DNA from: Patescibacteria group bacterium
GTDB lineage: Bacteria; Patescibacteriota; Doudnabacteria; UBA920
Length of the DNA: 64,000 nt
NCBI GenBank assembly: GCA_036726225.1
Contig: DAIMCS010000001.1
Coordinates: 188,885-252,884, forward strand
Direction of reading: 5' to 3'
The notes beneath the pieces were generated by a model. It was not told where the DNA came from, made no database searches, and saw nothing but the letters and a program-made list of their open reading frames with translations. The number at the start of each line of letters is the position of its first letter. Positions within the stretch are counted from its first letter, which is position 1. The translations under genes and the position numbers were made by a program. Below are positions 14,127-62,903 of this stretch, one piece after another.

Positions 14127-14879
14127 TTATTTTATAAAATTATTCAAAATCTGATTAAACTCCATGGGTTTGTCTACAAAACTAAAATGTCCTGCGTCTT
14201 TTAAAATTTCAAGTTGGGAGTTTGGAATTAAAGAATTCATTTTTTTGCCAAACACTACTGGCGTATCTATATCGTTCTCCCCGGTAACTATGAGGGTTGG
14301 GCAGGTAATTTTTTTCATGTCTTCTGTTAAATCCTCGCCTATAATGTTAACAAAAGTTTTTTGAAGCTCGGGAGTTGCCACATAATCTTCGGCGCCGAGT
14401 TTTTCATAAATTTTTTTTCGCAGCGGCTGCATAAATTTTGGTTTAAAAAAGGGACTTACAATTTTTGCCGCCGTGCCAATTAAACTTTTTTTATTGAAAT
14501 CCATAGCAAATCCCGCACTGTCTACTAAAATTAGTTTGTTAATTAATTCCCTATGATGCGCGGCCAGTTTAATCCCCACTCGCCCGCCAAAAGAATGGCC
14601 AACGATGATGGTATTTTTTAAATCCAACTTTTCTATAAATTCTTTAACCACTTCCGCATAATCCCCTACGGTCATTGGTGTGGATGGGGTCTGCGATCCT
14701 CCAAAACCTGGGAAATCAATTGCGTAAGATTTTTCCTGCAGCTGGCTGATTACTGGCAACCAAATTTCTTTGTTCGACCGCCAGCCATGCAAAAAAAGCA
14801 AGCTTTTACTTGCTTGATTTTCCTGATTTAAAACCGAGTAATTAACTAACAAATTTTTTATAATTATCTGGCCATTCAT
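14127..14879 (-). CDS. Alpha/beta hydrolase fold protein
   Basis: GHSFGG nucleophile elbow; start trimmed to internal MNGQIIIKN because the track ORF upstream extension overlaps tRNA-Pro and its leader. Confidence 0.7.
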   Translation of the reverse strand: MNGQIIIKNLLVNYSVLNQENQASKSLLFLHGWRSNKEIWLPVISQLQEKSYAIDFPGFGGSQTPSTPMTVGDYAEVVKEFIEKLDLKNTIIVGHSFGGRVGIKLAAHHRELINKLILVDSAGFAMDFNKKSLIGTAAKIVSPFFKPKFMQPLRKKIYEKLGAEDYVATPELQKTFVNIIGEDLTEDMKKITCPTLIVTGENDIDTPVVFGKKMNSLIPNSQLEILKDAGHFSFVDKPMEFNQILNNFIK

Positions 14880-14957
14880 AAACGTATAATACCATTGCTC
14901 AAAGCAAATTAAAAGGCTATAATATATTGGATTTTTGACCCGAAATAAACATAAGGG

Positions 14958-15073
14958 CTCCCAAAAATACTGATGAGCATTCACAAAGGTATTTTTGGGA
15001 AAGACGAGCGCCCGCGGAGAGCGAAAGTCCCGATTTTTAAATCGGGACGTGAGCTCGGAGCAAGGCGCGAGGA
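14958..15073 (+). ncRNA. Structured tRNA-leader element (copy A) immediately upstream of tRNA-Pro
   Basis: cccaaaaat-hairpin-atttttggg module, then GGAGAGCGAAAGTCCCGAT-loop-ATCGGGAC-GTGAGCTCGGA enclosed by outer stem gcgcc/ggcgc. Confidence 0.5.
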
Positions 15074-15147
15074 CGGGATGTAGTATACCGGTAGTACACA
15101 CGCTTCGGGTGCGTGGAGACTGGGTTCGATTCCCAGCATCCCGACCA
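15074..15147 (+). tRNA. tRNA-Pro(CGG)
   Basis: CGGGATG acceptor/CATCCCG, anticodon loop TTCGGGT, T-arm GGTTCGATTCC, encoded CCA. Confidence 0.8.
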
Positions 15148-15183
15148 AAAACCACCAATCATTAGATTGGTGGTTTTTGTTGA
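15148..15183 (+). terminator. Rho-independent terminator
   Basis: accaccaatcattagattggtggt hairpin + T5. Confidence 0.75.
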
Positions 15184-16478: not shown

Positions 16479-17816
16479 ATGTATAATTATATCATAAATT
16501 TAAGAAATAGTCAAAAATTTACTAAAATCCTTTTATTTTTGCTGGTTTTGTCTATTTTCATACCCATTAGGAATGTTTTTTTAAGTTCCCAGTCCTACCT
16601 GACTGGTGATTATTCTGACTTTACATCGATCTCCTTATATTTAAGCGATATTTTGTTATTTACCACGTGGTTTTTGTTAATTTTACCACGTGGTAGAGCT
16701 TCCCACCACGTGGGAAGACCTATAAAATTGCTTATTTTATGGGTTTTTTTGGGTTTTTTAATAAATTTTGGACTTTATAAAGGCTTAAACACTTATTTTC
16801 TCTTTAAATGGCTGGAATTAATTGTTGCATATGAAACATTTAGGCTAATTTTCCGAGAAACAGGCTTAAAAATGAGCTTTTTTAAGCTTTTCGCCTGGTT
16901 TTGTGGCATCCAGTCAGTTTTAGCAATCATACAATTCTGCACCCAAACCTCTGTCGGAATCTATAAACTAGGGGAGTCACATTTAAGCCCATTAATATTG
17001 GGAGTAGCTAAAATTGTTTCAGGTGGAACAACCTATATTCGAGGATATGGCACATTTCCGCATCCAAACGCTCTTTCTGCTTTTTTGGTGGTAGGAATTT
17101 TAATTTCTATATATCTTTTACTTAATTCGGCTAAAACCAGATCAAAAATCACCTATGCTACCATACTTTTCGTAAATACCCTAGGATTAACCGTTACTTT
17201 CTCACGTGGAGCATATTTAGCTTTGGCATTAGGATTGATAATTTTCTTCGGATTTTTGTTTTCCTCAAGAGGGGAATCCTCTAAAGAGGATTCCCCTCTT
17301 GCAAAGTTACTAATTTTTTCCCTTTTATCAATCGCCGTCTCGTTTTTAATCTTTAAACCCTTCCTCATTTCTCGCGCAGAGTTTTCCGACAGCTCATTTA
17401 TTGAAAGAAAATTTTATAACGAGACCGGCTTAAAAATGGCTAAAAATAATCCCATTTTTGGGGTTGGGATGGGGGAGAGTGTGCTTCATATGGAACAGTA
17501 CTCGGGTTTAAGGCTGGAACCTTGGGAAAAACAACCGCCTCACAATTATTTCATCATCGCCGCCGCTGAACTTGGCATTGGCGGAGCGCTTATTTTGCTT
17601 TGGATATTTCTGTCTCATTTTTGGGGGCTGATTAAAAAAATAAAATCCGAGGTTAATCCCGGACTTGTCACTTTTCACTTGTTACTTGTCACTGTCCTTG
17701 CCACTTTTTTGCTTCTAATGCAATTCGACCATTATTTTTATACTTTACAGCAAACTCAATTGCTTCTTTGGATGATTTTAGGGATAATAAGCGCTGAGAT
17801 GAATGAAAAACAATAG
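16479..17816 (+). CDS. O-antigen ligase/polymerase-like (Wzy_C) membrane protein with in-frame palindromic insertions
   Basis: 445 aa, many TM helices, TFSRGAYLALALG motif; insertions at 16659-16720 (3x ACCACGTGG) and 17263-17301 (perfect palindrome agaggggaatcctct-aaag-aggattcccctct). Confidence 0.65.
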   Translation: MYNYIINLRNSQKFTKILLFLLVLSIFIPIRNVFLSSQSYLTGDYSDFTSISLYLSDILLFTTWFLLILPRGRASHHVGRPIKLLILWVFLGFLINFGLYKGLNTYFLFKWLELIVAYETFRLIFRETGLKMSFFKLFAWFCGIQSVLAIIQFCTQTSVGIYKLGESHLSPLILGVAKIVSGGTTYIRGYGTFPHPNALSAFLVVGILISIYLLLNSAKTRSKITYATILFVNTLGLTVTFSRGAYLALALGLIIFFGFLFSSRGESSKEDSPLAKLLIFSLLSIAVSFLIFKPFLISRAEFSDSSFIERKFYNETGLKMAKNNPIFGVGMGESVLHMEQYSGLRLEPWEKQPPHNYFIIAAAELGIGGALILLWIFLSHFWGLIKKIKSEVNPGLVTFHLLLVTVLATFLLLMQFDHYFYTLQQTQLLLWMILGIISAEMNEKQ

Positions 17817-18198: not shown

Positions 18199-18669
18199 TC
18201 ATTTGTGGTACTCTTTACCGGCAAGAATTGTTCCGGCGCGATAAATCTGTTCAATTAAAATTAGGCGGGCAAGATTATGCGGAAAGGTAAGAGGGGAGAG
18301 CGAAATCGAATAGTTACTATAAGCCTTAAGGCTGCCGTGAAGGCCAATGCCGCTGCCAATTACAAACACCAATTCTTTTCCCAGTCCGCCGGTTCTTTGT
18401 AAAAACTGCGCAAAATCCTGCGAATTTCTTAAAGTGCCTTTTTCTTCCAGCAAAATAATAATTCCGTCATCAGGTAATTGTTTTATTATTTTTTCCGCTT
18501 CTTTTTCTTTTACTTTATCTAAATCTTGGTTGCCGTGGTAGGGCACTTCGGGTAGTTCCACAATTTTAATCTTTGCATACGATGACATCCTTTTTAAATA
18601 TTCTTTTTCCAATTCCAAAAACGCCTGCTCCTTAAATTTTCCTAAAGCAATAATCTTTATTTTAAACAT
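18199..18669 (-). CDS. rlmH: 23S rRNA (pseudouridine1915-N3)-methyltransferase RlmH
   Basis: SPOUT fold, MFKIKIIALGK... start; track ORF 5' extension (54 aa) judged spurious. Confidence 0.8.
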   Translation of the reverse strand: MFKIKIIALGKFKEQAFLELEKEYLKRMSSYAKIKIVELPEVPYHGNQDLDKVKEKEAEKIIKQLPDDGIIILLEEKGTLRNSQDFAQFLQRTGGLGKELVFVIGSGIGLHGSLKAYSNYSISLSPLTFPHNLARLILIEQIYRAGTILAGKEYHK

Positions 18670-18734
18670 AGGTTCTTTACTCACTATAGCCTGTAAGGTA
18701 AAATTAGACCAGCTCGGTTTTAAAGGAGGTTTAG

Positions 18735-18938
18735 GTGAAAAAACAACCACACCTGCTAAAGGCACTAATGTCCGACGGCGACTTAAAACGTCTACAAACC
18801 TTACTCGCCAATCCCAAAACAAAAGGCTCAATAAGAAAAACTCTCATAAGCAAGCTCGGGCAATTGGGGTTGAAAGCAAAAAAAGCGGACGAGATTGTGG
18901 AAATTGCAATTAAAGAAATAATGCGGTCCAAAACCTAA
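18735..18938 (+). CDS. Hypothetical small basic protein
   Basis: 67 aa, followed by intrinsic terminator 18941-18973. Confidence 0.4.
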   Translation: MKKQPHLLKALMSDGDLKRLQTLLANPKTKGSIRKTLISKLGQLGLKAKKADEIVEIAIKEIMRSKT

Positions 18939-19166
18939 AAAGGCGTACCGATGTCATCGGTACGCCTTTTTTCTTTATCGTGGTGGATAAACAATTTGAC
19001 TCAAAATTTTGAGCGGGTCTACAATTAAAATAGCCGTAATTCTCCGCAGGAGAATGTTGTTCGCGGCCGTGGCCCGCTTGTGTGCCGGTTCCCATTAGCT
19101 GAAAATGCCTTAGGGGATACGTGCTATGCAAGTAGCGATGCCGCCATCAAAAAACTAGGAGGATCC

Positions 19167-19922
19167 ATGTTCCAATTAGTGAACGATGGCGGAAATTCAA
19201 GGCGCGTTACTGTGTTGTTGCTGAGAGGGTTAGCAATTCTTCTCTGCACTACGGTATCGCTAACTGTTTACCAAACGTGGCACATTCAAACTCTGTCGGC
19301 AGACCAATTGGCCGGACGTTTGTACCCGTCACCGCCTGTCGGAATACCACATATCACTGTGCTGTTCCCAGCAGGCAAGGAAAGGAGAACCCAGCCTAAC
19401 AGAAGAACCACCAACATTCCTGAACTCCAATTCACTTCACCCCGGGAAATTCCAAAGGGCATTCCGAACATCCCGTTTACAGAAATACCAAACACGTTTG
19501 GTGTCCCTAACGGAGTTCCGGGCGGTGAAATTTCCAAGATTCCGAATTTTGAGTTTTTCTCGAGAGAACCGGAAGCCTTGCCTGTTCCGCCTCCTCCGCC
19601 CCCGCCTCCACCGGTTGTTCCAGCGCCGGCTCCGCGAGCCCGTGTGGGCGGTAATGTAATTGCGGCAAACCTAATCTCTCAGGTTAAGCCGGCATATCCG
19701 CAACTGGCCAGACAGGCCCGCATTTCGGGCGTGGTTGTGCTTGAGGCGGAAATAAACAAGGAGGGGAGCATTGAAAACCTCAAGGTCATCACGGGCCATC
19801 CGCTGCTTATCCAAGCGGCCATTGACGCCGTCAAGCAATGGCGTTACAAACCAACTTTGCTTAACAGCGAACCGGTTGCCGTGGTAACCACAATTACTGT
19901 AAATTTTGCGTTCGCCCAATAA
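19167..19922 (+). CDS. TonB C-terminal domain protein (N-terminal TM anchor, Pro-rich linker, TonB_C domain)
   Basis: Strong RBS AGGAGGA before ATG at 19167; PPPPPPPPPVVPAPAP linker; C-terminal NVIAANLISQVKPAYP...GVVVLEAEINKEG...PVAVVTTITVNF; GC-rich; terminators on both sides. Confidence 0.65.
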   Translation: MFQLVNDGGNSRRVTVLLLRGLAILLCTTVSLTVYQTWHIQTLSADQLAGRLYPSPPVGIPHITVLFPAGKERRTQPNRRTTNIPELQFTSPREIPKGIPNIPFTEIPNTFGVPNGVPGGEISKIPNFEFFSREPEALPVPPPPPPPPPVVPAPAPRARVGGNVIAANLISQVKPAYPQLARQARISGVVVLEAEINKEGSIENLKVITGHPLLIQAAIDAVKQWRYKPTLLNSEPVAVVTTITVNFAFAQ

Positions 19923-20008
19923 CTTGAGCTGATGCAAAAAACGCCCCGGTGACCATCGGGGCGTTTTTATTTAATTACAAAAAATTATTCAAAATGCAAT
20001 AACTTCAC

Positions 20009-21058
20009 CTACCATTTTAATGCGCGCACAACTTCCCAGGCTTTTTTTTGAGTCCCGTCGGCTTTAAGCAGGCCAAAAGTTTGAAATCTTTCGTCAACGC
20101 CGGTATTTGAAGGAATGTCGTACAAGCCGAATTGAGTAACGTATTCAGGCTTAACCTCTTTTAAAAGTTCAGGCAATGCGGCATAAAATTGTGACTGAAT
20201 TTCTTCAGAACCGCCTGCGCCGGAATAAAAAGCAATTTCCGAAATAGCAATTCGTTGGGTGGGCAAGTATTTGCGAATCTCCCCAAAAAAATTCTTCGGT
20301 AATTTAGAAGGCGTGGGAGCGCTTAAAATATTTGGGTAGGTGGTAAAGGAAAAAATATCCGAGCTGTCTTTGAATTGGGACAAAATTTCATACTGTTTAT
20401 CCATACGCATTACATCCCAGGCAAAACTTAAAGTTACCGTTTGGTTTGGGTACTTCTTTTTTACTGCAGCATAAGTTTCTTTACTAAGTGAGACGTAGTC
20501 CGAAAATTCCTGTTCATTTTTCTCATGCAACATTAAGTTCACTTCTGTGCCAATGCCCAGCACGTCAGGTTTCCACGCTGCAATTTTTAAAGTTTCATTA
20601 ATAAAAGCCTGTCTAACCTCGGCGTCAGAAAAATGCCTGCCTTTTAAAGGATCTGGCGGCGCAGCTTCCGCGTGGGACCAACCGGTAAGCGGATCTAAAT
20701 GGATATGGACTTTAAGTCCTTTCTTTTTCGCCTGGTCTAGCACCTGTTTGGTCAACCCTTGGAGTTCTTGTTCATCCCAGCGCATAAGAACACTGGTATG
20801 GTCGCCAATTTCCAAAGCACGCGCAAAATACTCATCAATTTCCTGTTGCTGCATATTTAAAAATGAAGCGGGAAAATTACGCGGCGCAAAATAACTGCCA
20901 AATTCCGTGGTGCCGCCTAAGACAGGCGAGGGGCTCACAGGTTCGGGCGAAGGATCTTTTTCTTTGTTGCCACCCAAAACATTAATAATTAATGCCAGCA
21001 CAAAAAGCCCGGCGAAAAAAATAACAAACCACTTTAAAACTTTTTTTATAAAACCCAT
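20009..21058 (-). CDS. Membrane-anchored hypothetical protein, possible TIM-barrel glycoside hydrolase
   Basis: 349 aa; N-terminal TM, Pro/Ser linker, weak GH5/GH26-like resemblance. Confidence 0.35.
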   Translation of the reverse strand: MGFIKKVLKWFVIFFAGLFVLALIINVLGGNKEKDPSPEPVSPSPVLGGTTEFGSYFAPRNFPASFLNMQQQEIDEYFARALEIGDHTSVLMRWDEQELQGLTKQVLDQAKKKGLKVHIHLDPLTGWSHAEAAPPDPLKGRHFSDAEVRQAFINETLKIAAWKPDVLGIGTEVNLMLHEKNEQEFSDYVSLSKETYAAVKKKYPNQTVTLSFAWDVMRMDKQYEILSQFKDSSDIFSFTTYPNILSAPTPSKLPKNFFGEIRKYLPTQRIAISEIAFYSGAGGSEEIQSQFYAALPELLKEVKPEYVTQFGLYDIPSNTGVDERFQTFGLLKADGTQKKAWEVVRALKW

Positions 21059-21077
21059 ACTTTTTATGTTAATTCTC

Positions 21078-21151
21078 TGGTGGACCTAGGGAGAATCGAA
21101 CTCCCGCCTCAGCAATGCGAATGCCGCGTCATACCACTTGACTATAGGCCC
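21078..21151 (-). tRNA. tRNA-Ala(CGC)
   Basis: rc GGGCCTATAGTCAAGTGG...TTCGCAT loop...GAGTTCGATTCTCCCTAGGTCCACCA; G3:U70. Confidence 0.8.
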
Positions 21152-21471: not shown

Positions 21472-22983
21472 TTATATACTATGTATCATTTCTATTTTTG
21501 CGCCCAAAGATTTTAACCTGGCGACTAAATTTTCATAGCCGCGGTTTATAGAATAAACATTGCGGAGCACAGATGTGCCGCGGGCGGCGAGCATGGCAAT
21601 TAAAATAATCGCAGCCGGACGCAAAGCCGGCGGACAAATAACTTCCGCGCCCCTAAGTTCTGTTGGCCCTTCCACATACACGCGGTGCGCATCTGCCAAA
21701 ATAATGTTAGCGCGAAGTTTATTTAATTCCATATAGTAAATTGCGCGGTTTTCGTAAACCCAATCGTGAATAAGTGTGGTGCCTTTGGCCTGCGTGGCCA
21801 CGGGCACAAAGAAGGGGAGATTGTCTATATTTATTCCGGCGGCAGAAGTAAGCGGGTGAATTTTTTCTTCCAAAGCAGAAAGTTTGGAAGAATAGGTTTT
21901 AATATCCACCAAATTAGTTACGCCGTTGTGACTTTTGTATTTTTTTATAATTGAATATTTAAAACCCATCTTTTCTAATTTTAAAAGTTCCAATTCAAGA
22001 AAATCTATTGGGCAGCGCTCAATAATAATGGAAGAATTGGTAGTTGCGGCCAAAGACAAAAACAACATAGCCTCAATTGGATCTTCACTCAAATAAAAAA
22101 CCGCGCGTTTATTAATTTGGGGTTTGCCGTAAATTTTTAAGGTGGATGTGCCAATACCTTCAATTTTCACGCCTAAAACCTGCAGAAAATGGCACAAATC
22201 TTGCACCATATAATTTGCGGATGCCAATTTTATTGTAGTGGCGCCGGAAGTTTTGGCTGCTGCCATAAGCGTATTTTCCGTTACTGTGTCACCCATTTCA
22301 TACAAAACAATTTCTGCCGGTTTCAATTTGGGGGAGCTTACTTGGTAATGGTCGTGGAAAGTTTTAATTTTTACGCCCAATTTTTCTAAAGCAAATAAAT
22401 GAGGCCTGACAGTTCGCTCGCCCAACTTGCAGCCGCCGGCCAAAGGTAAGCGAAAATTGCTCAAAATATGAGCAAGCGGCCCTAAGAGCATAAGCACGCT
22501 TCGGGTTTTAACCGCAGCTTCTTTATCTATATTGTTTAAATTAATTTTCCTACCCGGCACTACCTCCACGTCGCTGCCTTGCCACTTTACGTTTACGCCA
22601 ATGCTGCTTAAAACCTCAATGACTCTATGAACTTCCTCTATTTTAGGCACATTTTTTAAAACCGTTTTACCTTCATTTAGCAAAGTGGCGCAGAGTAAGG
22701 CCACAGCCGCATTCTTTGAGGTGTTTATTGAAACTTTACCGGAAAGTTTATGCCCGCCCTCAATTTTAAAGTTAACCGACTTGTCGGCCAGAGTAATAAT
22801 TTCCTGGTTTAACACCGAACTTATTTTAGCCAGCATTTCCGTGGTTAAGTTCTGCTGGCCTTTTTCCATTCTGGCTACGGCCGACTGGCTGGTCTTTAAG
22901 GCTTTGGCAAAACCGCTTTGGGTAAAACCCTTTTGTTCCCTGACTTCTGCAATAAACTGTCCGATTTTTTGCTGGTCTTTCAT
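21472..22983 (-). CDS. murA: HTH(XRE)-fused UDP-N-acetylglucosamine 1-carboxyvinyltransferase MurA
   Basis: 503 aa; N-terminal approx. 60-aa XRE HTH then full MurA (KLSGKVSINTSKNAAVALLCATLL...). Confidence 0.85.
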   Translation of the reverse strand: MKDQQKIGQFIAEVREQKGFTQSGFAKALKTSQSAVARMEKGQQNLTTEMLAKISSVLNQEIITLADKSVNFKIEGGHKLSGKVSINTSKNAAVALLCATLLNEGKTVLKNVPKIEEVHRVIEVLSSIGVNVKWQGSDVEVVPGRKINLNNIDKEAAVKTRSVLMLLGPLAHILSNFRLPLAGGCKLGERTVRPHLFALEKLGVKIKTFHDHYQVSSPKLKPAEIVLYEMGDTVTENTLMAAAKTSGATTIKLASANYMVQDLCHFLQVLGVKIEGIGTSTLKIYGKPQINKRAVFYLSEDPIEAMLFLSLAATTNSSIIIERCPIDFLELELLKLEKMGFKYSIIKKYKSHNGVTNLVDIKTYSSKLSALEEKIHPLTSAAGINIDNLPFFVPVATQAKGTTLIHDWVYENRAIYYMELNKLRANIILADAHRVYVEGPTELRGAEVICPPALRPAAIILIAMLAARGTSVLRNVYSINRGYENLVARLKSLGAKIEMIHSI

Positions 22984-51523: not shown

Positions 51524-51600
51524 TGGTGGGCGTGCTAGGACTCGAACCTAGGACCCTCTTGGTATAAGCAAGATGCTCTAACCAACTGAGCTACACGCCC
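51524..51600 (-). tRNA. tRNA-Ile(TAT)
   Basis: rc GGGCGTGTAGCTCAGTTGGTTAGAGCA TCTTG CTTATAC CAAGA GGGTC CTAGGTTCGAGTCCTAG CACGCCCACCA; anticodon UAU. Confidence 0.7.
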
Positions 51601-55970: not shown

Positions 55971-57143
55971 CTATTTGATTTTTAAAAATCTTTTACCCAA
56001 ACGAAACAAATCGCCGGAAGCAATTTTTACACGGGCATTCTCATCGGTAATTTTTTGCTGATTATGGTTGACCGCGCCTTCTTTAATTTTCCGCCTGGCT
56101 TCCGATTTAGACGAAGCCAGCTTGCCTTCAACTAAAATATCCAGCAAAATATATTCGCCGTCTTTCTTGCTTAAAACCACATCCGGCTCTATTTCTGAAG
56201 ATGAATTTTTCCCAAATTTTTTCCCAAAATTTTCTTTAGCTTGGGCTGCTATTTTGCCGCCATAATACAGCTCTGTAATTTTTTGGGCCAAAACTAATTT
56301 TTGGTCGCGTGGGTTTGCGTTCGAACGCAATATGCCGTCTATTTCCCCGAGTGGCACGCGGGTAGCCAAAATAAAATACTTTTTTATTAAGTCATCGCTA
56401 ATGGACATAACCTTGCCAAACATATCGTTGGGCTCATCTGTCACATTAATAACATTGCCCCAGGAAGAGGACATTTTTCGGCCGTCCGTGCCTTCTAAAA
56501 TCCCCATCATCAAAATATCTTGGGGTTCTTGGTTGTACAGGGGTTGTATGCGCCTGCCGGCCAAAAGATTAAACCTTTGGTCCGTACCGCCTAATTCTAA
56601 ATCAGCCTTAACAGCAACCGAATCGTAACCTTGAAGTAAAGGATACATAGCTTCGTGAAGCGATACCCTTTGCCCGGCCTTCATACGCCTGGCAATAATT
56701 TCACGTGATTCCATTTCATGCAGCCCAAACAGGTTAGCGAGCTTGGCGAGTTCAAAAAATCCTAACTTATTCAGCCATTTGGAATTATAATGAACCTCGG
56801 TCTTTTTCTTGTCCAAAATTTTGTAGGCCTGCTCAAAATATGTCTTCATATTTGCTTTAACTTCTGCTTCTGTAAGCATAGGACGCTCTGAATCTTTGTC
56901 TGAAGTATCACCCACAAGGCCTGTGGAGTCACCAACAATAAACACCGCCTGGTGACCGGCGTCCTGAAAAGCGCGCAATTTTAAAAGCAAAACCGCCCGG
57001 CCAATGTGGATGTTTTGGGAGGTGGGGTCTATGCCCAGTTTTACTCTAAGTTTCTTCTTTGAAACCAGCTGCCGCTCTAAATGATGGTAATCTATAACCT
57101 CTTCCACCCCGCGGCCCAAAAGTTCTGCAATAGGATTATTCAT
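55971..57143 (-). CDS. tyrS: Tyrosine--tRNA ligase
   Basis: 390 aa; class I; KMSSS motif; C-terminal S4 domain. Confidence 0.85.
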   Translation of the reverse strand: MNNPIAELLGRGVEEVIDYHHLERQLVSKKKLRVKLGIDPTSQNIHIGRAVLLLKLRAFQDAGHQAVFIVGDSTGLVGDTSDKDSERPMLTEAEVKANMKTYFEQAYKILDKKKTEVHYNSKWLNKLGFFELAKLANLFGLHEMESREIIARRMKAGQRVSLHEAMYPLLQGYDSVAVKADLELGGTDQRFNLLAGRRIQPLYNQEPQDILMMGILEGTDGRKMSSSWGNVINVTDEPNDMFGKVMSISDDLIKKYFILATRVPLGEIDGILRSNANPRDQKLVLAQKITELYYGGKIAAQAKENFGKKFGKNSSSEIEPDVVLSKKDGEYILLDILVEGKLASSKSEARRKIKEGAVNHNQQKITDENARVKIASGDLFRLGKRFLKIK

Positions 57144-57203: not shown

Positions 57204-59840
57204 ATGCGCGTTTACAACTATAAATTCCAAAAAGGCAATTCCAACAACTCTAAATTTAAGCTAAGGAAAAATTCCTGGTTTAAAAGATGGGACGGCAGAA
57301 AAATTTTTACCTGGGCTTTCAGGATTTTTGCTTTAGGGGTACTTTTCGTGGCGGTTTTGTTTTTGTACTATGCTAAAGATTTGCCGGATCCAAACAAATT
57401 AATAGACAGAATTGTACCCGAATCCACCAAAATTTTTGCCAGGGACGGCGAATTGCTTTACGAAATTCACGGCGAGTTCAAGCGCGACCAGGTAAACTTG
57501 GACGAAATCTCCACCTATTTAAAAAACGCCACGGTTGCAATTGAAGATAAAGATTTTTACAAGCACGGCGGCATATCGTTAACCGGTATGGCCAGGGCAG
57601 TAATTGTGGATGTCAGAAACTTAAACAAATCCCAAGGCGGCAGCACCATTACGCAACAGTTTGTAAAAAAAGCAATTTTAACGGATGACAAATCCTGGGA
57701 CCGAAAAATCCGCGAAATTATTTTGGCAATTTCCATTGACTCGCGTTTTTCCAAAGACGAAATTTTAAAACTTTACTTAAACGAAATTCCCTACGGCCGC
57801 AACACTTACGGGATTGAAGCGGCCAGCCAAAGTTATTTTGGCAAAAAGGCCAAAGATTTAAGCTTAGCCGAAAGCGCTTATTTGGCTTCTATACCGCAAG
57901 CGCCCACCCGCTACAATCCGCTTGGTCCTAACAGGGCGGCTTTAGATAACCGCAAAAATACTGTGCTTTTAGCAATGAAGCAACAGGGCTACATTACTGA
58001 AGATGAACAAAAAACGGCTTCTGAAGAAAAAGTGGAATTTTTGCCGCTAAGCCACGGCATTAAAGCGCCGCATTTCACTCTTTGGGTCCAGGACTACCTG
58101 GCCAATAAGTATGGCGAAAAAACCTTAGAAGAAGGCGGGCTAAAAGTTTACACCACCTTAAATTTCAAAATGCAGGAAATTGCCGAAGCCGCTGTAAAAA
58201 ACGGCGTAGAAAAAACCGCGACCAAATATAACGTGGGCAATGCGGCGCTGGTTGCCATAGACCCCAAAACCGGACAAATTTTAGCTATGGTTGGAGGCAA
58301 AGATTATTTTGGGGACGTCCTGCCCGAAGGCTGTAAGCCCGGAAAAAATTGCGTGTTTGAACCAAACGTGAATGTAGCGGTTTCGCAAAGGCAACCCGGC
58401 TCCAGTTTTAAGCCGTATGTTTACGCCACTGCATTTAAAAAAGAATTTAAATATTCTCCGGCCTCAATGCTGGTGGATGTAGTTACCAATTTCGGCACCT
58501 TTGGCGGCAAAGACTACATTCCGCGCAACTACAATGAACAATCTTACGGGCCGCTGTCTATGAGAAAAGCCCTGGCGGGAAGTTTAAACGTGCCCGCAGT
58601 AAAAACTTTAGCCTTAGTCGGCGTGGGCAGCGCTACACAAACCGCCCACGACTTGGGCATTACCAGCCCGCTTGCTGACTGCGGCCTTTCCTTGGTGTTG
58701 GGCGGCTGCGAAGTAAGGCTGGTTGACCACGTAGCTGCGTTTTCGGTTATTGCCAATGGGGGAGTTAAGAATGAAAAAACGCCGATTTTAAAAATTGAGG
58801 ACAAAGACGGAAAAATTATTGAAGAATTCAAAAGCGACCCTAAAGAAGTTTTAGACCCGGAGGCCGCTTACGAGTTAATTAGCATAATGACAGACAACGA
58901 CGCCCGAAGTTTTGTTTTCGGCGCCAACTCGCCGCTAATTTTGCCCGGGTGGGTGGTGGCTGCCAAAACCGGCACCACACAAAACTGGCACGACGGCTGG
59001 GCCTTAGGCTTTACGCCCTCTTTGGCTGCCGGCGTGTGGGCAGGCAACAACGACGGCACCCTGCTTAAAAAAGGCGCGGACGGCGTGTTCGTGGCGGCGC
59101 CAATTTGGAATGAATTTATGAAAAACGCCCTCAAAGACACCCCGGCAGAAAACTTTAGCCGGCCTTCCGGCATTCAACAGGTGGTTGTAGATGAAGTTTC
59201 AGGAAAACTTCCCACCAATGCCACGCCCAATACTAAAACCGAAATTTTTGCCAGCTATTCAGTGCCCGAGAGCTACGACAATGTGCATATTAGAGCCGCT
59301 ATAGATATTTTAACCGGGCTGCCCGCAGACGCCCTCACCCCACCGGAGAGAATAAGCTACCAGCTTTTTAACGTGCTGCACAGCGAAAAACCAGAAAATC
59401 CAAGCTGGGAACAGCCGGTGATAGCCTGGGCACTTGCCCATGGTTACAGCTATCCAAGTGCGGAAGTCTCGGGCGGCGGAGCAAGCCCGTCTGCGCCCAA
59501 CACCGGCCAGGGCCCCAACGTAAGTTTTGAACAGCCCGTGGAAGGCTCGGTAATATTCTCTTTGCCAATAAACGTGAGTGTGGCTGCGGCCGGGCCCAAC
59601 CCGGTGGCAAGAGTAGATTTGTCAGTAGACGGCGAATTTGTAAAAAGCCTAACCCAGGCACCTTACACCTTTAGCTTAAACAAAACCTATAGCAACGGTC
59701 GCCACGTTTTGGCTGCCAAAGCAGTCGACACTTTAGGCAACAGTTCTGACACCAGCATTAATATAAGTTTTGAAATAAATTCCGGCCCTCCCCCCGGTTT
59801 ACCGTTCCCTGGTGATTTTAATACAACCACTCCGCAGTAA
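57204..59840 (+). CDS. Penicillin-binding protein 1A (bifunctional transglycosylase/transpeptidase) with C-terminal extension
   Basis: GT51 motifs EDKDFYKHGG, GGSTITQQ; transpeptidase SSFKP, KTGTT. Confidence 0.9.
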   Translation: MRVYNYKFQKGNSNNSKFKLRKNSWFKRWDGRKIFTWAFRIFALGVLFVAVLFLYYAKDLPDPNKLIDRIVPESTKIFARDGELLYEIHGEFKRDQVNLDEISTYLKNATVAIEDKDFYKHGGISLTGMARAVIVDVRNLNKSQGGSTITQQFVKKAILTDDKSWDRKIREIILAISIDSRFSKDEILKLYLNEIPYGRNTYGIEAASQSYFGKKAKDLSLAESAYLASIPQAPTRYNPLGPNRAALDNRKNTVLLAMKQQGYITEDEQKTASEEKVEFLPLSHGIKAPHFTLWVQDYLANKYGEKTLEEGGLKVYTTLNFKMQEIAEAAVKNGVEKTATKYNVGNAALVAIDPKTGQILAMVGGKDYFGDVLPEGCKPGKNCVFEPNVNVAVSQRQPGSSFKPYVYATAFKKEFKYSPASMLVDVVTNFGTFGGKDYIPRNYNEQSYGPLSMRKALAGSLNVPAVKTLALVGVGSATQTAHDLGITSPLADCGLSLVLGGCEVRLVDHVAAFSVIANGGVKNEKTPILKIEDKDGKIIEEFKSDPKEVLDPEAAYELISIMTDNDARSFVFGANSPLILPGWVVAAKTGTTQNWHDGWALGFTPSLAAGVWAGNNDGTLLKKGADGVFVAAPIWNEFMKNALKDTPAENFSRPSGIQQVVVDEVSGKLPTNATPNTKTEIFASYSVPESYDNVHIRAAIDILTGLPADALTPPERISYQLFNVLHSEKPENPSWEQPVIAWALAHGYSYPSAEVSGGGASPSAPNTGQGPNVSFEQPVEGSVIFSLPINVSVAAAGPNPVARVDLSVDGEFVKSLTQAPYTFSLNKTYSNGRHVLAAKAVDTLGNSSDTSINISFEINSGPPPGLPFPGDFNTTTPQ

Positions 59841-61072
59841 TGTTTATTCTAATACTCCTCGCAACTCTAATACTAACCCCGGCCTATACGGTAAGGTTTA
59901 ACTTTTTTGGTATGCCCGCAAACTTACTTATGATGTGGGTGTTTTTAGTTTGGGTTGTCTTTTTTATTTGGTTAATGGTAAAAAATCAGCTATCACAATT
60001 TTTAGAGTCCGTTAAAAATTGTCATAGAAAAATTTTAGTTTTTACCGGATTATTTTTCCTGTCAGGATTAATTAGCCTCTTTGTAAACGGCTTTAGCATT
60101 GCAAAGTTTGGGCAATTCATTGTTTTGTTCCTGCAGCCGATTTTGTTATTTTTTATTGCCCGATATATTTTTGAGCTATCCCCACAAACCAAGACCCGTT
60201 TACTGTTTACTGTTTACTGTTTACTTGCCTTTGCCGGCTTATATGCGATTCTGCAATACCTAACCCTCATCGGCCTTCCGGAAATCTACTGGGGCAACGC
60301 CAACGAACCCAAACGCGCATTAAGCTTTTTTGCCCATCCCAACTTTTACGCCCTTTGGTCTGCGCCCCTGCTTGCGCTTTTGATTCCCGATCTTTTTCAA
60401 AATCTTAAATCTTCAATCTTAAATCTTAAATCTTTTTTTTGGCTTTTAGGCGCTCTTGGCCTGCTGTTTTCTTTTTCCCGTGCAGGCTGGCTGGGACTAG
60501 GTGCGGCTATGGGTATTTACCTGCTAATTGCCGGCGACAAAAAAATTCGCAAACTTGCTCTTGCAGCTGTTATTGTTATAGTTATTGTTATAGTCTCAAT
60601 TCCGAACTTGCGATGGCGCTTTGTTTTACCTTTCTATGGTGAAAAATCAGCCGTCTCCAGATTAAGTTTATGGAATACGGGAGCTAAAGCTATAAAAGAA
60701 TCGCCCATTTTAGGTTTGGGATTAACCGGATTTAACAACAACTGGCAACGGCTCAATACCGACCCCAACCTGGACACCCACAACTTCCCGCATAATATAT
60801 TTTTAAATTTTTGGGTGGAGACCGGACTTCTGGGCTTAATTAGCTTTTTAGGATTAGCCTCGGTTTTAATTTATCGCGGCCTGCGTCGCTCTGTCATCCC
60901 GGACTCCGATCCGGGATCCAGAATTTTAGATTCTCGCTTTCGCGGGAATGACACTATCAAGTTAAGCGTCGCCCTTTTCCTCATCTGCTTAATTTTTCAA
61001 GGACTAATTGATAACCCTTATTTTAAAAACGATTTAGCCTTGGTGTTTTGGATGGTACTATCTTTGTTTTAA
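59840..61072 (+). CDS. O-antigen ligase-like (Wzy_C) membrane protein, second paralog, with in-frame palindromic-element insertion
   Basis: FSRAGWLGLGAAMG motif; insertion 60893-60952 encodes ...VIPDSDPGSRILDSRFRGNDTI... Confidence 0.65.
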   Translation: MFILILLATLILTPAYTVRFNFFGMPANLLMMWVFLVWVVFFIWLMVKNQLSQFLESVKNCHRKILVFTGLFFLSGLISLFVNGFSIAKFGQFIVLFLQPILLFFIARYIFELSPQTKTRLLFTVYCLLAFAGLYAILQYLTLIGLPEIYWGNANEPKRALSFFAHPNFYALWSAPLLALLIPDLFQNLKSSILNLKSFFWLLGALGLLFSFSRAGWLGLGAAMGIYLLIAGDKKIRKLALAAVIVIVIVIVSIPNLRWRFVLPFYGEKSAVSRLSLWNTGAKAIKESPILGLGLTGFNNNWQRLNTDPNLDTHNFPHNIFLNFWVETGLLGLISFLGLASVLIYRGLRRSVIPDSDPGSRILDSRFRGNDTIKLSVALFLICLIFQGLIDNPYFKNDLALVFWMVLSLF

Positions 61073-62198: not shown

Positions 62199-62903
62199 CT
62201 AATTCACCTTTGGCTGTTTTCTTATTATATAGTACTGCTGGGCTACGGCAAAGAGGGTGGTAACTATCCAGTAAAGCGGCAAACCGGCCGGCAGCTTCAT
62301 AGCAATAACCACGCTTATTACCGGCAAAACGTAAGTGGTTTGCAATTGCATAGCTCTCATTGTAGTGTCTTGGCCGGTAGTTTTGGGCATCATTAATTTC
62401 GATTGCCAAAATTGGGCAAGACCGGCAATTACGCCTAACACAATACTCGGTTTGCTTAGGTCCAAAAGATTTAAAAATCTAGGGTCTAAATTTGCCGGAT
62501 GCATAACAAAGTTATACAAACCGCTTAAATTATTGTTCAAAGCTTTGCTGAAAACCTGGTAGAGCGCAATTAAAATTGGCAGCTGGACGAGCAAGGGCAA
62601 ACACGAGGAAAGCGGATTAATTTTATGTTCCTTGTACAGTTCCATCATAGCTTTGGCCTGGGCTTCCTTGTCGTGCTTGTGTTTTTCGCGGACCTCATTT
62701 AATTTAGGCTGCAAATCGTTCATTGCCTTTTGGCTCTTAAGGCTTTTGTGGAAGCTTGGCGCCAACAATAAACGGATAAGCAAAGTGACAAGAATAATTA
62801 CAATGCCTATGTCGTGCCCGGGAATGACATTGTAAAAAAACACCAACAGGTTAAGTAGGGGGCGGTAAATAACTTCGTTGTACGCTAAGGTAAGAAAAGA
62901 CAT
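62199..62903 (-). CDS. yidC: Membrane protein insertase YidC (short form)
   Basis: 234 aa; Oxa1-family core. Confidence 0.85.
   Translation of the reverse strand: MSFLTLAYNEVIYRPLLNLLVFFYNVIPGHDIGIVIILVTLLIRLLLAPSFHKSLKSQKAMNDLQPKLNEVREKHKHDKEAQAKAMMELYKEHKINPLSSCLPLLVQLPILIALYQVFSKALNNNLSGLYNFVMHPANLDPRFLNLLDLSKPSIVLGVIAGLAQFWQSKLMMPKTTGQDTTMRAMQLQTTYVLPVISVVIAMKLPAGLPLYWIVTTLFAVAQQYYIIRKQPKVN

What the first reader, a model, noticed from the sequence alone, without database searches (positions are those of the whole stretch)
19167..19922. TonB C-terminal-domain protein in an otherwise monoderm-like or CPR-like gene set
The ORF has a TM anchor, a Pro-rich rigid linker including a PPPPPPPPP run, and a clear TonB_C domain. 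It is GC-enriched and insulated by terminators on both sides. No ExbB/ExbD or TonB-dependent receptor genes are visible in the window. If the host lacks an outer membrane, the protein may have been acquired and repurposed, perhaps as a cell-surface or adhesion protein.
Basis: partly seen in the sequence, partly recalled or inferred. Interest (0 to 1): 0.5.

Follow-up and report, generated by a model that had tools for sequence, protein, structure and literature searches.

The report
Orphan TonB protein in a CPR bacterium
A tiny-genome soil bacterium (Candidatus Doudnabacteria, a group thought to lack an outer membrane) keeps a well-preserved copy of TonB, a protein that normally powers outer-membrane transport. 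The copy came long ago from Acidobacteria, has no motor genes beside it, and has lost its motor-contact features, so it has probably been put to another use in the cell envelope.

Summary
Window 19167-19922 (+) encodes a 251-aa protein with an N-terminal membrane helix, a proline-rich linker (PPPPPPPPP at residues 141-149) and a clear TonB_C domain (Pfam 73 bits; model TM 0.85 to a solved TonB domain). Strong hairpins flank it. The host is Candidatus Doudnabacteria (CPR).

It is not an assembly artefact. Independent assemblies span both junctions, and at least four other CPR genomes carry a homolog next to tRNA-Ala(CGC).

The closest relatives are Acidobacteriota TonBs (85-89% identity in the domain) that head tonB-exbB-exbD-exbD operons. 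No CPR locus has ExbB or ExbD nearby. Synonymous sites are saturated and domain dN/dS is 0.04-0.12, so the transfer is old and the domain is under selection. The GC excess is mostly amino-acid composition.

The motor-contact features are eroded. The polar transmembrane residue present in 75 of 76 acidobacterial homologs is Leu here, and the D-box-position segment has gained charges in all six CPR copies that could be scored.

The gene is patchy. Close relatives have an empty site (RlmH 8 bp from the tRNA).

Best reading: a motor-less TonB reused as a passive envelope tether or adaptor. A whole-genome search for ExbBD, receptors and outer-membrane genes could not be run. Modest interest.

The parts
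19167..19922 (+). CDS of the orphan TonB-family protein (251 aa plus stop)
   Evidence: ORF list and sequence; Pfam TonB_C 73 bits; TIGR01352; AlphaFold model and Foldseek match to TonB C-terminal domains
19157..19162 (+). Shine-Dalgarno AGGAGG, 4 nt upstream of the ATG
   Evidence: Read directly from the sequence
18996..19025 (+). Promoter-like site TTGACT-18-TACAAT (consensus match only)
   Evidence: 10 of 12 matches; not evidence of function
19206..19271 (+). Membrane anchor, residues 14-35 (VTVLLLRGLAILLCTTVSLTVY). It has no H/Q/N/E/D, so the polar residue equivalent to E. coli His20 is missing.
   Evidence: Model helix 11-41, pLDDT about 90. At the aligned column, non-CPR homologs have E32/Q28/H13/N2/A1 and the window has L.
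19302..19325 (+). Segment at the position of the ExbD-binding D-box, residues 46-53 (DQLAGRLY): charged and degenerate
   Evidence: 65 of 72 acidobacterial homologs have an uncharged QLMTFLVA-like strand here. All six CPR copies that could be scored carry 1-3 charges; Mann-Whitney p 2e-4. D-box definition from PMC10907165.
19326..19661 (+). Proline-rich, disordered linker (about residues 54-165) with the nine-proline run at 19587-19613 and a conserved P-x-EIPK-x-I motif
   Evidence: pLDDT below 50 over most of it; 26% Pro; invariant P92, P96 and I95 across the family
19662..19919 (+). TonB C-terminal domain (residues 166-251), with the YP, GHPLL and W-x-Y-x-P signatures intact
   Evidence: dN/dS 0.04-0.12 among CPR copies. 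85-89% identical to acidobacterial gp5 TonBs.
18937..18971 (.). Upstream hairpin with flanking A and T tracts (terminator-like). It follows a small strain-specific ORF at 18735-18938.
   Evidence: -23.8 kcal/mol, z -6.4
19937..19968 (.). Downstream hairpin with flanking A and T tracts. It looks like a bidirectional terminator between TonB and the convergent GH-like gene.
   Evidence: -23.6 kcal/mol, z -4.7
20009..21058 (-). Membrane-anchored or secreted glycoside-hydrolase-like gene (349 aa) that shares the variable slot with TonB; strain-specific
   Evidence: Weak GH53 match below cutoff; no homolog in any other fetched locus
21078..21151 (-). tRNA-Ala(CGC): one boundary of the variable slot, linked to the TonB gene in all five Doudnabacteria-type CPR loci
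   Evidence: empty-site comparison
18199..18663 (-). rlmH (SPOUT methyltransferase): the other boundary of the slot. In TonB-lacking relatives it abuts tRNA-Ala(CGC).
   Evidence: Pfam; L096 has RlmH and the tRNA 8 bp apart

Best explanation
What it is. The gene encodes a stand-alone ('orphan') TonB-family protein in a Candidatus Doudnabacteria (CPR/Patescibacteria) genome.

Origin. An ancestor of these CPR bacteria took the first gene of an acidobacterial tonB-exbB-exbD-exbD operon, without the motor genes. The gene came to lie beside tRNA-Ala(CGC). Several lineages have kept it since, and others have lost it.

Architecture. The protein is anchored in the cytoplasmic membrane by one N-terminal helix, N-terminus inside. 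A disordered, proline-rich linker of about 120 residues projects outward and ends in a canonical TonB C-terminal domain.

Proposed mechanism (inferred). The parts that couple TonB to its ExbB-ExbD motor have decayed, and the C-terminal domain is under strong purifying selection. I therefore infer that it no longer transduces energy. It would work as a passive, wall-spanning tether or adaptor. The C-terminal domain would hold a partner in or beyond the cell wall, either a short beta-strand ('Ton-box-like') of another envelope protein by strand addition, or peptidoglycan itself.

Shown: identity, architecture, fold, host, acidobacterial affinity, old age of the transfer, purifying selection, decay of motor-contact features, absence of nearby motor genes, and patchy distribution.

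Inferred: absence of a motor in the whole genome, absence of an outer membrane in this organism, and the passive tether/adaptor function.
For: Identity and fold.

Host is Doudnabacteria. The YidC is the short 234-aa monoderm type.

Real junctions: the independent JGI contig L001 matches window 18674-20528 with one mismatch. L090 is a second independent contig.

Acidobacterial affinity: nearly all of the best 80 genome loci are Acidobacteriota, and gp5 MAGs are 65-67% identical over residues 89-251. Domain identity is 85-89%.

Donor-type context: in L002 and L004-L009, tonB is followed directly by exbB-exbD(-exbD). ExbB/ExbD occur within 10 kb in 57-61 of about 80 acidobacterial loci and in none of the CPR loci (window 64 kb, L003, L067, L084, L086). 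They are also absent from the 10-kb flanks beyond the window.

Shared position: Wzy_C-RlmH-TonB ... MurA in L084, and Wzy_C-TonB-DUF4446-bactofilin-DAGK-IF2 in L086 and L089. tRNA-Ala(CGC) lies 0.2-1.6 kb downstream in the window, L003, L084, L086 and L089.

Single origin is plausible: the full-length NJ tree groups the window, P0039, L003, L086 and P0035 at bootstrap 57, and with L084 at 42.

Old and selected: 21-23 of about 32 four-fold sites differ. dN/dS of TonB_C is 0.04-0.12, against 0.2-0.5 for anchor plus linker.

Motor decoupling: the polar TM residue is lost in 3 of 7 CPR copies against 1 of 76 others, Fisher p 0.0015. The D-box-position segment is charged in all six CPR copies scored.

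Literature: ExbB in 3 CPR against 950 other genomes, ExbD 3 against 878, TonB-dependent receptors 6 against 728 (PMC6744442). No outer membrane seen in CPR cells (PMC7137472).
Against: - Only about 84 kb of a genome of roughly 1 Mb was examined for ExbB/ExbD, receptors and outer-membrane genes. tonB is often unlinked to exbBD in other bacteria (PMC12204202).
- No Doudnabacteria cell envelope has been imaged.
- Two CPR copies (L084, P0039) keep the S-x3-H motif and two keep Gln, so decoupling is not uniform across the clade.
- The D-box assignment in this family is by position and character only, not by experiment.
- A conserved linker motif (P-x-EIPK-x-I) survives in the CPR copies and its partner is unknown.
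- Tree support for a single CPR clade is weak, and the 92-residue domain alone does not resolve it.
- No partner for the C-terminal domain was identified, and no gene is consistently adjacent.
- The very high conservation of the domain could mean that the original kind of partner, a Ton box, still exists somewhere.
Confidence: 0.55

Rival explanations
1. Ordinary TonB of a complete Ton system. The genome would encode ExbB-ExbD and TonB-dependent receptors elsewhere, perhaps with an outer membrane, and this gene would simply be unlinked from them.
For: tonB is frequently unlinked from exbBD in bacteria (PMC12204202). The C-terminal domain is as conserved as in bona fide Ton systems. Two CPR homologs keep the S-x3-H motif. 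Only about 84 kb was searched.
Against: CPR surveys find ExbB and ExbD in 3 genomes each and receptors in 6, across a survey of thousands of genomes, and report no outer membrane. In the donor-type family the motor genes are adjacent, while none of five independent CPR loci has them. The window protein lacks any polar TM residue and has a charged D-box-position segment. The window's YidC is the short monoderm type.
Confidence: 0.12
2. The TonB homolog serves another envelope machine rather than acting as a simple tether. One example would be organising or anchoring type IV pili, as TonB3 with PocAB does in Pseudomonas aeruginosa. This would be a regulated protein-protein adaptor role.
For: TonB3 is required for pilus assembly and twitching (PMC5285504). 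Type IV pilus genes are enriched in CPR (PMC6744442). In the TonB-lacking relative L095 the same tRNA-Ala slot carries a type IV pilin-like gene. Surface-related genes (Wzy_C, GH-like) are neighbours.
Against: TonB3 works with the ExbBD homologs PocAB, which were not found here. No pilus gene is adjacent to TonB in any TonB-bearing locus. The link rests on one neighbouring-slot observation.
Confidence: 0.1
3. Non-functional relic: a horizontally acquired gene that is drifting toward loss, as has been suggested for incomplete Ton systems in other monoderms.
For: The published view is that incomplete Ton systems in monoderms are 'likely non-functional' (PMC12204202). The gene is absent from close relatives. 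The N-terminal motor-contact features have decayed.
Against: The ORF is intact in at least six CPR lineages. It has its own RBS, a promoter-like site and terminators. dN/dS of the domain is 0.04-0.12 with saturated synonymous sites. All family-invariant residues are kept.
Confidence: 0.05
4. Assembly or binning artefact: an acidobacterial fragment mis-joined into a CPR contig.
For: GC is 52% in a 42% genome, and the closest domain relatives are acidobacterial.
Against: Two independent JGI contigs from other samples (L001, L090) span the junctions with 0-1 mismatch. Homologs sit in the same neighbourhood in other CPR genomes. Nucleotide identity to acidobacterial genes is only about 72-74%. Most of the GC excess follows from composition.
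Confidence: 0.01

Closest known systems
TonB of Acidobacteriota tonB-exbB-exbD-exbD operons (for example 'gp5' soil MAGs QHWY01000057.1, MNKP01000069.1, QHXD01000102.1; loci L004-L006)
   Same: Same length class (about 250 aa). Same MF(E/Q) N-terminus, single anchor helix, polyproline tracts and P-x-EIPK-x-I linker motif. The C-terminal domain is 85-89% identical.
   Different: The acidobacterial genes head an operon with ExbB and two ExbD genes. They keep a polar TM residue (75 of 76) and an uncharged QLMTFLVA-type strand before the polyproline. The window gene is monocistronic, lacks both features, and its anchor plus linker is only about 28% identical.
E. coli / Pseudomonas TonB (energy transducer of the Ton system; PDB 1u07, 2gsk, 2grx, 6i97)
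   Same: Three-part architecture and C-terminal fold (TM 0.85 to 6i97_D). The YP and W-R-Y-(E/K)-P motifs are shared.
   Different: No SHLS/His20 equivalent, a degenerate D-box, no ExbBD or TonB-dependent receptor detected, and a host group reported to lack an outer membrane. Sequence identity is only about 22-28%.
Incomplete Ton systems in monoderm bacteria (Actinobacteria, Bacilli, Caldiserica, Dormibacteria) noted by Williams-Jones et al. 2025, PMC12204202
   Same: A TonB-family gene without the full system in a lineage without a classical outer membrane.
   Different: Those cases were called likely non-functional and their origin was left open. CPR were not mentioned. Here the origin (Acidobacteriota) can be named and strong purifying selection argues for function.
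Database entry OGE77835.1, 'TonB C-terminal domain-containing protein', Candidatus Doudnabacteria (GCA_001779925.1); P0127 / L086
   Same: The same gene family in the same candidate phylum, in the same neighbourhood (Wzy_C ... TonB ... tRNA-Ala ... DUF4446-bactofilin), 76% identical in the domain.
   Different: It exists only as an automatic annotation. It has Gln at the polar TM position where the window has Leu. I found no published analysis of it.
TonB3 with PocAB of Pseudomonas aeruginosa, and TolA
   Same: TonB-fold proteins used for something other than nutrient import: pilus or flagellum placement, and envelope integrity (TolA matches).
   Different: Both still depend on an ExbBD/TolQR-type motor and an outer membrane. 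No motor was found here.

Membership tests
TonB family (Pfam TonB_C, PF03544 / TIGR01352) | C-terminal TonB domain by sequence profile | tested here: met
   PF03544 at 73.2 bits (cutoff 24.6); TIGR01352 at 47.7 bits (cutoff 27.1)
TonB family (Pfam TonB_C, PF03544 / TIGR01352) | C-terminal alpha/beta fold of solved TonB domains | tested here: met
   AlphaFold pLDDT above 90 over 169-247. Foldseek top 16 hits are all TonB/FusB domains; best is 6i97_D, TM 0.85, rmsd 1.5 A.
TonB family (Pfam TonB_C, PF03544 / TIGR01352) | Single N-terminal membrane anchor followed by a proline-rich spacer | tested here: met
   Helix 11-41 and disordered 54-165; 26% Pro with a nine-proline run
Functional Ton system (TonB-ExbB-ExbD with TonB-dependent transporters) | Polar residue in the TonB transmembrane helix (E. 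coli S16-x3-H20, 'SHLS') that mediates contact with ExbB | tested here: not met
   The window TM segment has no H/Q/N/E/D. The aligned column is Leu, against E/Q/H/N in 75 of 76 acidobacterial homologs. The role of the motif is from PMC10907165 and general knowledge.
Functional Ton system (TonB-ExbB-ExbD with TonB-dependent transporters) | D-box: an uncharged beta-strand between anchor and polyproline that is captured by the ExbD dimer | tested here: inconclusive
   The positional equivalent is DQLAGRLY (2 charges, hydropathy -0.48), against QLMTFLVA-like with 0 charges in 65 of 72 acidobacterial homologs. The D-box of this family is assigned by analogy with E. coli, not by experiment.
Functional Ton system (TonB-ExbB-ExbD with TonB-dependent transporters) | ExbB and ExbD encoded in the genome | tested here: inconclusive
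   None in the 64-kb window, in 20 kb of flanks, or in four other CPR loci, with a positive control in acidobacterial loci. The rest of the genome could not be searched. CPR-wide surveys report near-absence.
Functional Ton system (TonB-ExbB-ExbD with TonB-dependent transporters) | TonB-dependent outer-membrane transporters (Plug plus beta-barrel) and an outer membrane | not testable with these tools
   None among the 49 window genes scanned against Pfam. The whole genome was not available and no imaging of Doudnabacteria exists. CPR surveys list receptors in 6 CPR against 728 other genomes.
Recently integrated tRNA-linked genomic island | Direct repeat of the tRNA 3' end at the far boundary, plus an integrase | tested here: not met
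   No repeat of 10 nt or more of tRNA-Ala or its flank within 18600-21047. No integrase among neighbours. Synonymous saturation shows the gene is old.

The most novel reading that the evidence does not exclude
Soil Doudnabacteria live attached to Acidobacteria and use this host-derived, motor-less TonB as a surface-displayed docking module. Its C-terminal domain has stayed nearly identical to that of acidobacterial TonB because it must still recognise an acidobacterial Ton-box-type strand, for example on host receptors or on proteins exposed at the contact site. If so, the gene would be both a molecular clue to the unknown host of this CPR lineage and a new, energy-independent use of the TonB fold in cell-cell attachment.
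Probability: 0.07. Interest if true: 0.75.

Novelty: new variant of a known kind. Interest (0 to 1): 0.4.

Why it matters
Published surveys state that TonB, ExbB and ExbD are missing from CPR bacteria and use that as support for the absence of an outer membrane. Incomplete Ton systems in monoderms have been dismissed as probably non-functional.

This case shows a TonB homolog that several CPR lineages have clearly kept under selection after an old transfer from Acidobacteria, while its motor-coupling features decayed. It gives a concrete, testable example of a force-transducer fold being reused without its motor. It also gives a possible hint about which organisms soil Doudnabacteria associate with.

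Practically, it warns that a TonB_C hit in a genome is not evidence of a Ton system or of a diderm envelope.

Tried and rejected
- GC content as proof of foreign origin: rejected. The expected GC from the amino-acid sequence with host codon usage is 49.9% against 52.2% observed.
- Misassembly: rejected by two independent contigs and by synteny.
- Recent island integration at tRNA-Ala: no att-like repeat and no integrase.
- The conserved linker motif P-x-EIPK-x-I as the ExbD-binding D-box: rejected after reading PMC10907165, which places the D-box directly after the anchor and before the polyproline.
- A conserved adjacent partner gene: none found. The ORFs after TonB differ in every locus, and the small upstream ORF and the GH-like gene have no homolog in any other fetched locus.
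- Tree on the 92-residue domain alone: unresolved, supports of 35 or less. A first bootstrap script timed out.
- FeGenie supplementary tables (PMC7005843) hold no Doudnabacteria entry in the text that is stored.
- Searching for a CPR ExbB with the last homology search was considered and not run. Only the best 120 hits are listed and these would be acidobacterial, so a negative result would say nothing.
- The species-representative genome scan did not return the window's own genome, so its other contigs could not be reached.
Full report
**1. The observation**

The ORF exists as described. An ATG at 19167 follows AGGAGG (19157-19162), and the stop codon ends at 19922. A longer GTG-initiated reading (280 aa) was called by one annotation. 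All homologs begin MF(E/Q), which fits the ATG.

Pfam gives TonB_C at 73.2 bits (cutoff 24.6) over residues 174-248, and TIGR01352 gives 47.7 bits. An AlphaFold model built on 26 homologs has three parts: a confident helix at 11-41, a disordered stretch at about 54-165, and an alpha/beta domain at 169-247 with pLDDT above 90. The top 16 Foldseek PDB hits are all TonB or FusB C-terminal domains, and the best is 6i97_D with TM 0.85 and rmsd 1.5 A. The nine-proline run is residues 141-149.

Two hairpins flank the gene, at 18937-18971 and 19937-19968. They fold at -23.8 and -23.6 kcal/mol, and no shuffle folds as well. A promoter-like site lies at 18996-19025. The gene therefore looks monocistronic.

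**2. The host**

Forty-nine window genes were scanned against Pfam. They include:
- peptidoglycan genes (Ddl, a Mur ligase, an HTH-MurA fusion, a class A PBP);
- FtsK, RodZ-like, bactofilin, IF-2, GyrA and TyrRS;
- a pyrimidine pathway;
- a short 234-aa YidC of the monoderm type, next to Jag/KhpB.

There are 13 scattered tRNAs. No ExbB, ExbD, TonB-dependent receptor, BamA, Lpt or Lpx gene was seen.

The window's GyrA is 100% identical to a protein on a 507,895-bp contig. Its next relatives at 84-91% identity are named Candidatus Doudnabacteria or Patescibacteria. So the 'CPR-like' impression is correct.

Ten-kilobase flanks beyond both window ends were fetched from other assemblies of the same organism. 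They hold RecA, RNase T, LspA and ComM on one side, and YidD, RnpA, L34, DnaA, DnaN, RecF and RuvB on the other. Nothing there is Ton-related.

**3. Not an artefact**

A 1,855-bp contig from a different JGI sample (L001) matches window 18674-20528 with one mismatch. The mismatch is a D-to-A change at residue 220. The contig spans both junctions of the gene with its CPR neighbours. A second contig (L090) joins TonB to RlmH and Wzy_C at 100% identity.

**4. Where the gene came from**

Among one genome per species of bacteria and archaea, 537 stretches encode relatives. Nearly all of the best 80 are Acidobacteriota; the exceptions are one Saccharibacteria contig and a few MAGs labelled Binatia or Eisenbacteria. 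Soil 'gp5' MAGs lead the list at 65-67% identity over residues 89-251, and one reaches 88% over the domain.

In an alignment of 83 full-length homologs, the C-terminal 92 residues are 85-89% identical to the gp5 group. Anchor plus linker is only about 25-33% identical to anything, and its best matches are CPR copies.

In the nearest acidobacterial loci (L002, L004-L009) tonB is immediately followed by exbB and one or two exbD genes. I built HMMs for ExbB and ExbD from those loci. They detect both proteins within 10 kb of tonB in 57-61 of about 80 acidobacterial loci. They detect them in none of the CPR loci: the whole window, L003, L067, L084 and L086.

TonB_C is a fast-evolving domain; identity to solved proteobacterial TonBs is only about 22-28%. 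Near-90% identity between a CPR bacterium and Acidobacteria therefore means horizontal transfer. I infer the direction as Acidobacteria to CPR. The family is ubiquitous and operon-embedded in Acidobacteriota, and patchy and orphan in CPR.

**5. How old, and is it used?**

Against every relative, CPR or acidobacterial, 21-23 of about 32 four-fold degenerate sites in conserved codons differ, and nucleotide identity is 65-74%. The transfer is therefore ancient.

Nei-Gojobori estimates give dN/dS of 0.04-0.12 for the C-terminal domain between CPR copies, and below 0.05 against acidobacterial copies. The values for anchor plus linker are 0.2-0.5. Every family-invariant residue is present, including the YP, GHPLL and W-x-Y-x-P signatures. 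The domain is therefore under strong purifying selection in the CPR lineage. This argues against a decaying relic.

The GC excess is real (52.2% against 42.5%, z 3.1) but lies mainly at first and second codon positions. With host codon usage the protein sequence alone predicts 49.9%, and whole-gene GC3 ranks 4th of 49 genes. Only the domain segment keeps excess GC3: 0.59 observed against 0.44 expected for residues 166-251. The same holds in four of six CPR copies. I did not explain this residue.

**6. Distribution within CPR**

Homologs occur in other Doudnabacteria-type genomes in the same neighbourhood:
GIY-YIG ... HTH-MurA.
- L086 (GCA_001779925.1; database entry OGE77835.1) and L089 have Wzy_C ... 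TonB ... DUF4446, bactofilin, DAGK ... IF-2.
- L003 (GCA_023245915.1) has a different neighbourhood.

In all five loci, tRNA-Ala(CGC) lies 0.2-1.6 kb downstream of TonB.

I used the adjacent RlmH as bait in metagenomes, which is independent of TonB. This recovered relatives with RlmH 74-81% and MurA 77-83% identical (L092-L096) that have no TonB_C gene. In L096, RlmH and tRNA-Ala(CGC) are 8 bp apart, whereas in the window they are 2.4 kb apart with TonB and a GH-like gene between them. In L095 the slot holds a type IV pilin-like gene.

No att-like repeat or integrase is present. A full-length neighbour-joining tree groups the window with P0039, L003, L086 and P0035 at bootstrap 57, and with L084 at 42. 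The short domain alone is unresolved.

The most economical history is one old gain next to tRNA-Ala(CGC), retention in several lineages, and loss in others. Repeated gain at a hot spot is not excluded. Each CPR copy being closer to the slowly evolving acidobacterial sequence than to other CPR copies is what independent divergence from an acidobacterial-like ancestor predicts.

**7. Signs of decoupling from the motor**

In E. coli, TonB contacts ExbB through its transmembrane helix (the S-x3-H motif). It contacts the ExbD dimer through the D-box, an uncharged beta-strand between the anchor and the polyproline (PMC10907165).

At the His-equivalent column, 75 of 76 acidobacterial homologs have a polar residue (E 32, Q 28, H 13, N 2). 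The window has Leu, and L003 and L067 have Val. L086 and P0035 have Gln, and L084 and P0039 have His. That is 3 of 7 lost against 1 of 76, Fisher p 0.0015. Independently of the alignment, the window's hydrophobic segment contains no H, Q, N, E or D at all.

At the D-box position, 65 of 72 acidobacterial homologs have an uncharged QLMTFLVA-like strand. All six CPR copies that could be scored carry 1-3 charged residues and lower hydropathy, and the window has DQLAGRLY (Mann-Whitney p 2e-4). The D-box of this family is assigned by position, not by experiment.

**8. What is known**

Méheust et al. 2019 state that TonB, ExbB and ExbD are missing in CPR and link this to the absence of an outer membrane. 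Their table lists ExbB in 3 CPR against 950 other genomes, ExbD in 3 against 878, receptors in 6 against 728, and MotA in 0 against 362 (PMC6744442).

Tian et al. 2020 also report TonB generally missing from Patescibacteria and cite cryo-EM showing no outer membrane (PMC7137472).

Williams-Jones et al. 2025 note incomplete Ton systems in some monoderms, call them likely non-functional, and leave their origin open. They do not mention CPR. They also warn that tonB is often unlinked from exbBD (PMC12204202).

Non-transport uses of TonB paralogs exist. TonB3 with PocAB is needed for type IV pili in P. aeruginosa (PMC5285504). Models in which TonB associates with peptidoglycan are reviewed in PMC9389320. 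From memory, direct peptidoglycan affinity of the TonB C-terminus was reported by Kaserer et al. 2008; I did not check this here.

I found no paper that analyses a CPR TonB. The Doudnabacteria homolog exists only as an automatic annotation.

**9. Interpretation**

Shown:
- a canonical TonB architecture and fold, in a Doudnabacteria genome;
- acidobacterial affinity and an old acquisition;
- a strongly constrained C-terminal domain and decayed motor-contact features;
- no motor genes nearby;
- accessory, tRNA-linked distribution.

Inferred:
- the genome as a whole lacks a Ton motor, receptors and an outer membrane;
- the protein acts without energy input, as a membrane-anchored, wall-spanning tether or adaptor whose C-terminal domain holds a partner strand or peptidoglycan.

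The linker of about 120 residues could span tens of nanometres if extended, enough to cross a wall. This is my own estimate.

The main rival is an ordinary Ton system encoded elsewhere in the genome (about 0.12). A pilus- or machine-associated adaptor role is a variant of repurposing (about 0.1). A relic (about 0.05) and an artefact (about 0.01) are unlikely.

The boldest reading still allowed is that the domain is kept acidobacterial-like because it docks onto an acidobacterial host (about 0.07).

**10. Verdict**

Three corrections apply: GC is a weak argument, the acquisition is old, and the gene is accessory.

It is a new variant of a known kind, an orphan and apparently motor-decoupled TonB in a CPR lineage. 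Interest is modest (0.4). The decisive test is a whole-genome search for ExbBD, receptors and outer-membrane biogenesis genes, which could not be run with the scans available.

Noticed in passing
window 18670-21077; L096 3676-3765; L095 5139-5995: The interval between rlmH and tRNA-Ala(CGC) is a variable slot in Doudnabacteria. It is empty (8 bp) in L096. It holds a type IV pilin-like gene in L095. In the window it holds TonB plus a GH-like gene. The contents are all envelope or surface proteins.
   Followed up: partly
window 19662-19919; L003, L084, L089 TonB genes: The TonB_C-coding segment keeps excess third-position GC (0.58-0.63, against about 0.44 expected from host usage) in four of six CPR copies, even though synonymous sites are saturated. 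This is unexplained. Slow amelioration or a nucleotide-level constraint are possibilities.
   Followed up: partly
alignment of 76 acidobacterial TonB homologs (loci L004-L083, P-hits): At the position of E. coli TonB His20, acidobacterial TonBs mostly carry Glu (32) or Gln (28) rather than His (13). The 'SHLS' histidine is therefore not the rule in this phylum.
   Followed up: no
window 21472-22983 (-): MurA (UDP-GlcNAc enolpyruvyl transferase) is fused to an N-terminal XRE-type helix-turn-helix domain. The fusion is conserved in L084, L093 and L095.
   Followed up: no
window 20009-21058 (-): A 349-aa protein with an N-terminal hydrophobic anchor and only a sub-threshold match to glycoside hydrolase family 53. 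It is convergent with TonB and has no homolog in any other fetched locus.
   Followed up: partly
window 51524-51600 (-): A tRNA-Ile gene with anticodon TAT. This is uncommon in bacteria, which usually read AUA with a modified CAU tRNA.
   Followed up: no
window 56337-56424 (-): ARAGORN calls a tRNA-His with anticodon ATG inside the TyrRS coding region. Rfam does not support it, so it is probably a false positive.
   Followed up: partly
window 16479-17816 (+) and 59840-61072 (+): Two Wzy_C (O-antigen ligase-like) membrane proteins in a genome with no sign of lipopolysaccharide. One is a conserved neighbour of the TonB slot. The other directly follows a class A PBP that carries a C-terminal Big_7 domain.
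   Followed up: no
window 62199-62903 (-) and L129 7489-9993: YidC is the short 234-aa form. The window ends about 1-2.5 kb from yidD-rnpA-rpmH-dnaA-dnaN, so it lies next to the presumed replication origin.
   Followed up: partly
window 15074-15147 (+) vs ORF 14127-15158 (-): tRNA-Pro(CGG) overlaps the 5' end of the mechanically listed alpha/beta-hydrolase ORF on the other strand. The true start of that gene must be further downstream.
   Followed up: no
window 18735-18938 (+): A small ORF (56-67 aa, lysine-rich) ends exactly at the upstream terminator hairpin. It was called as a gene in L001 and has no homolog in the other loci.
   Followed up: partly
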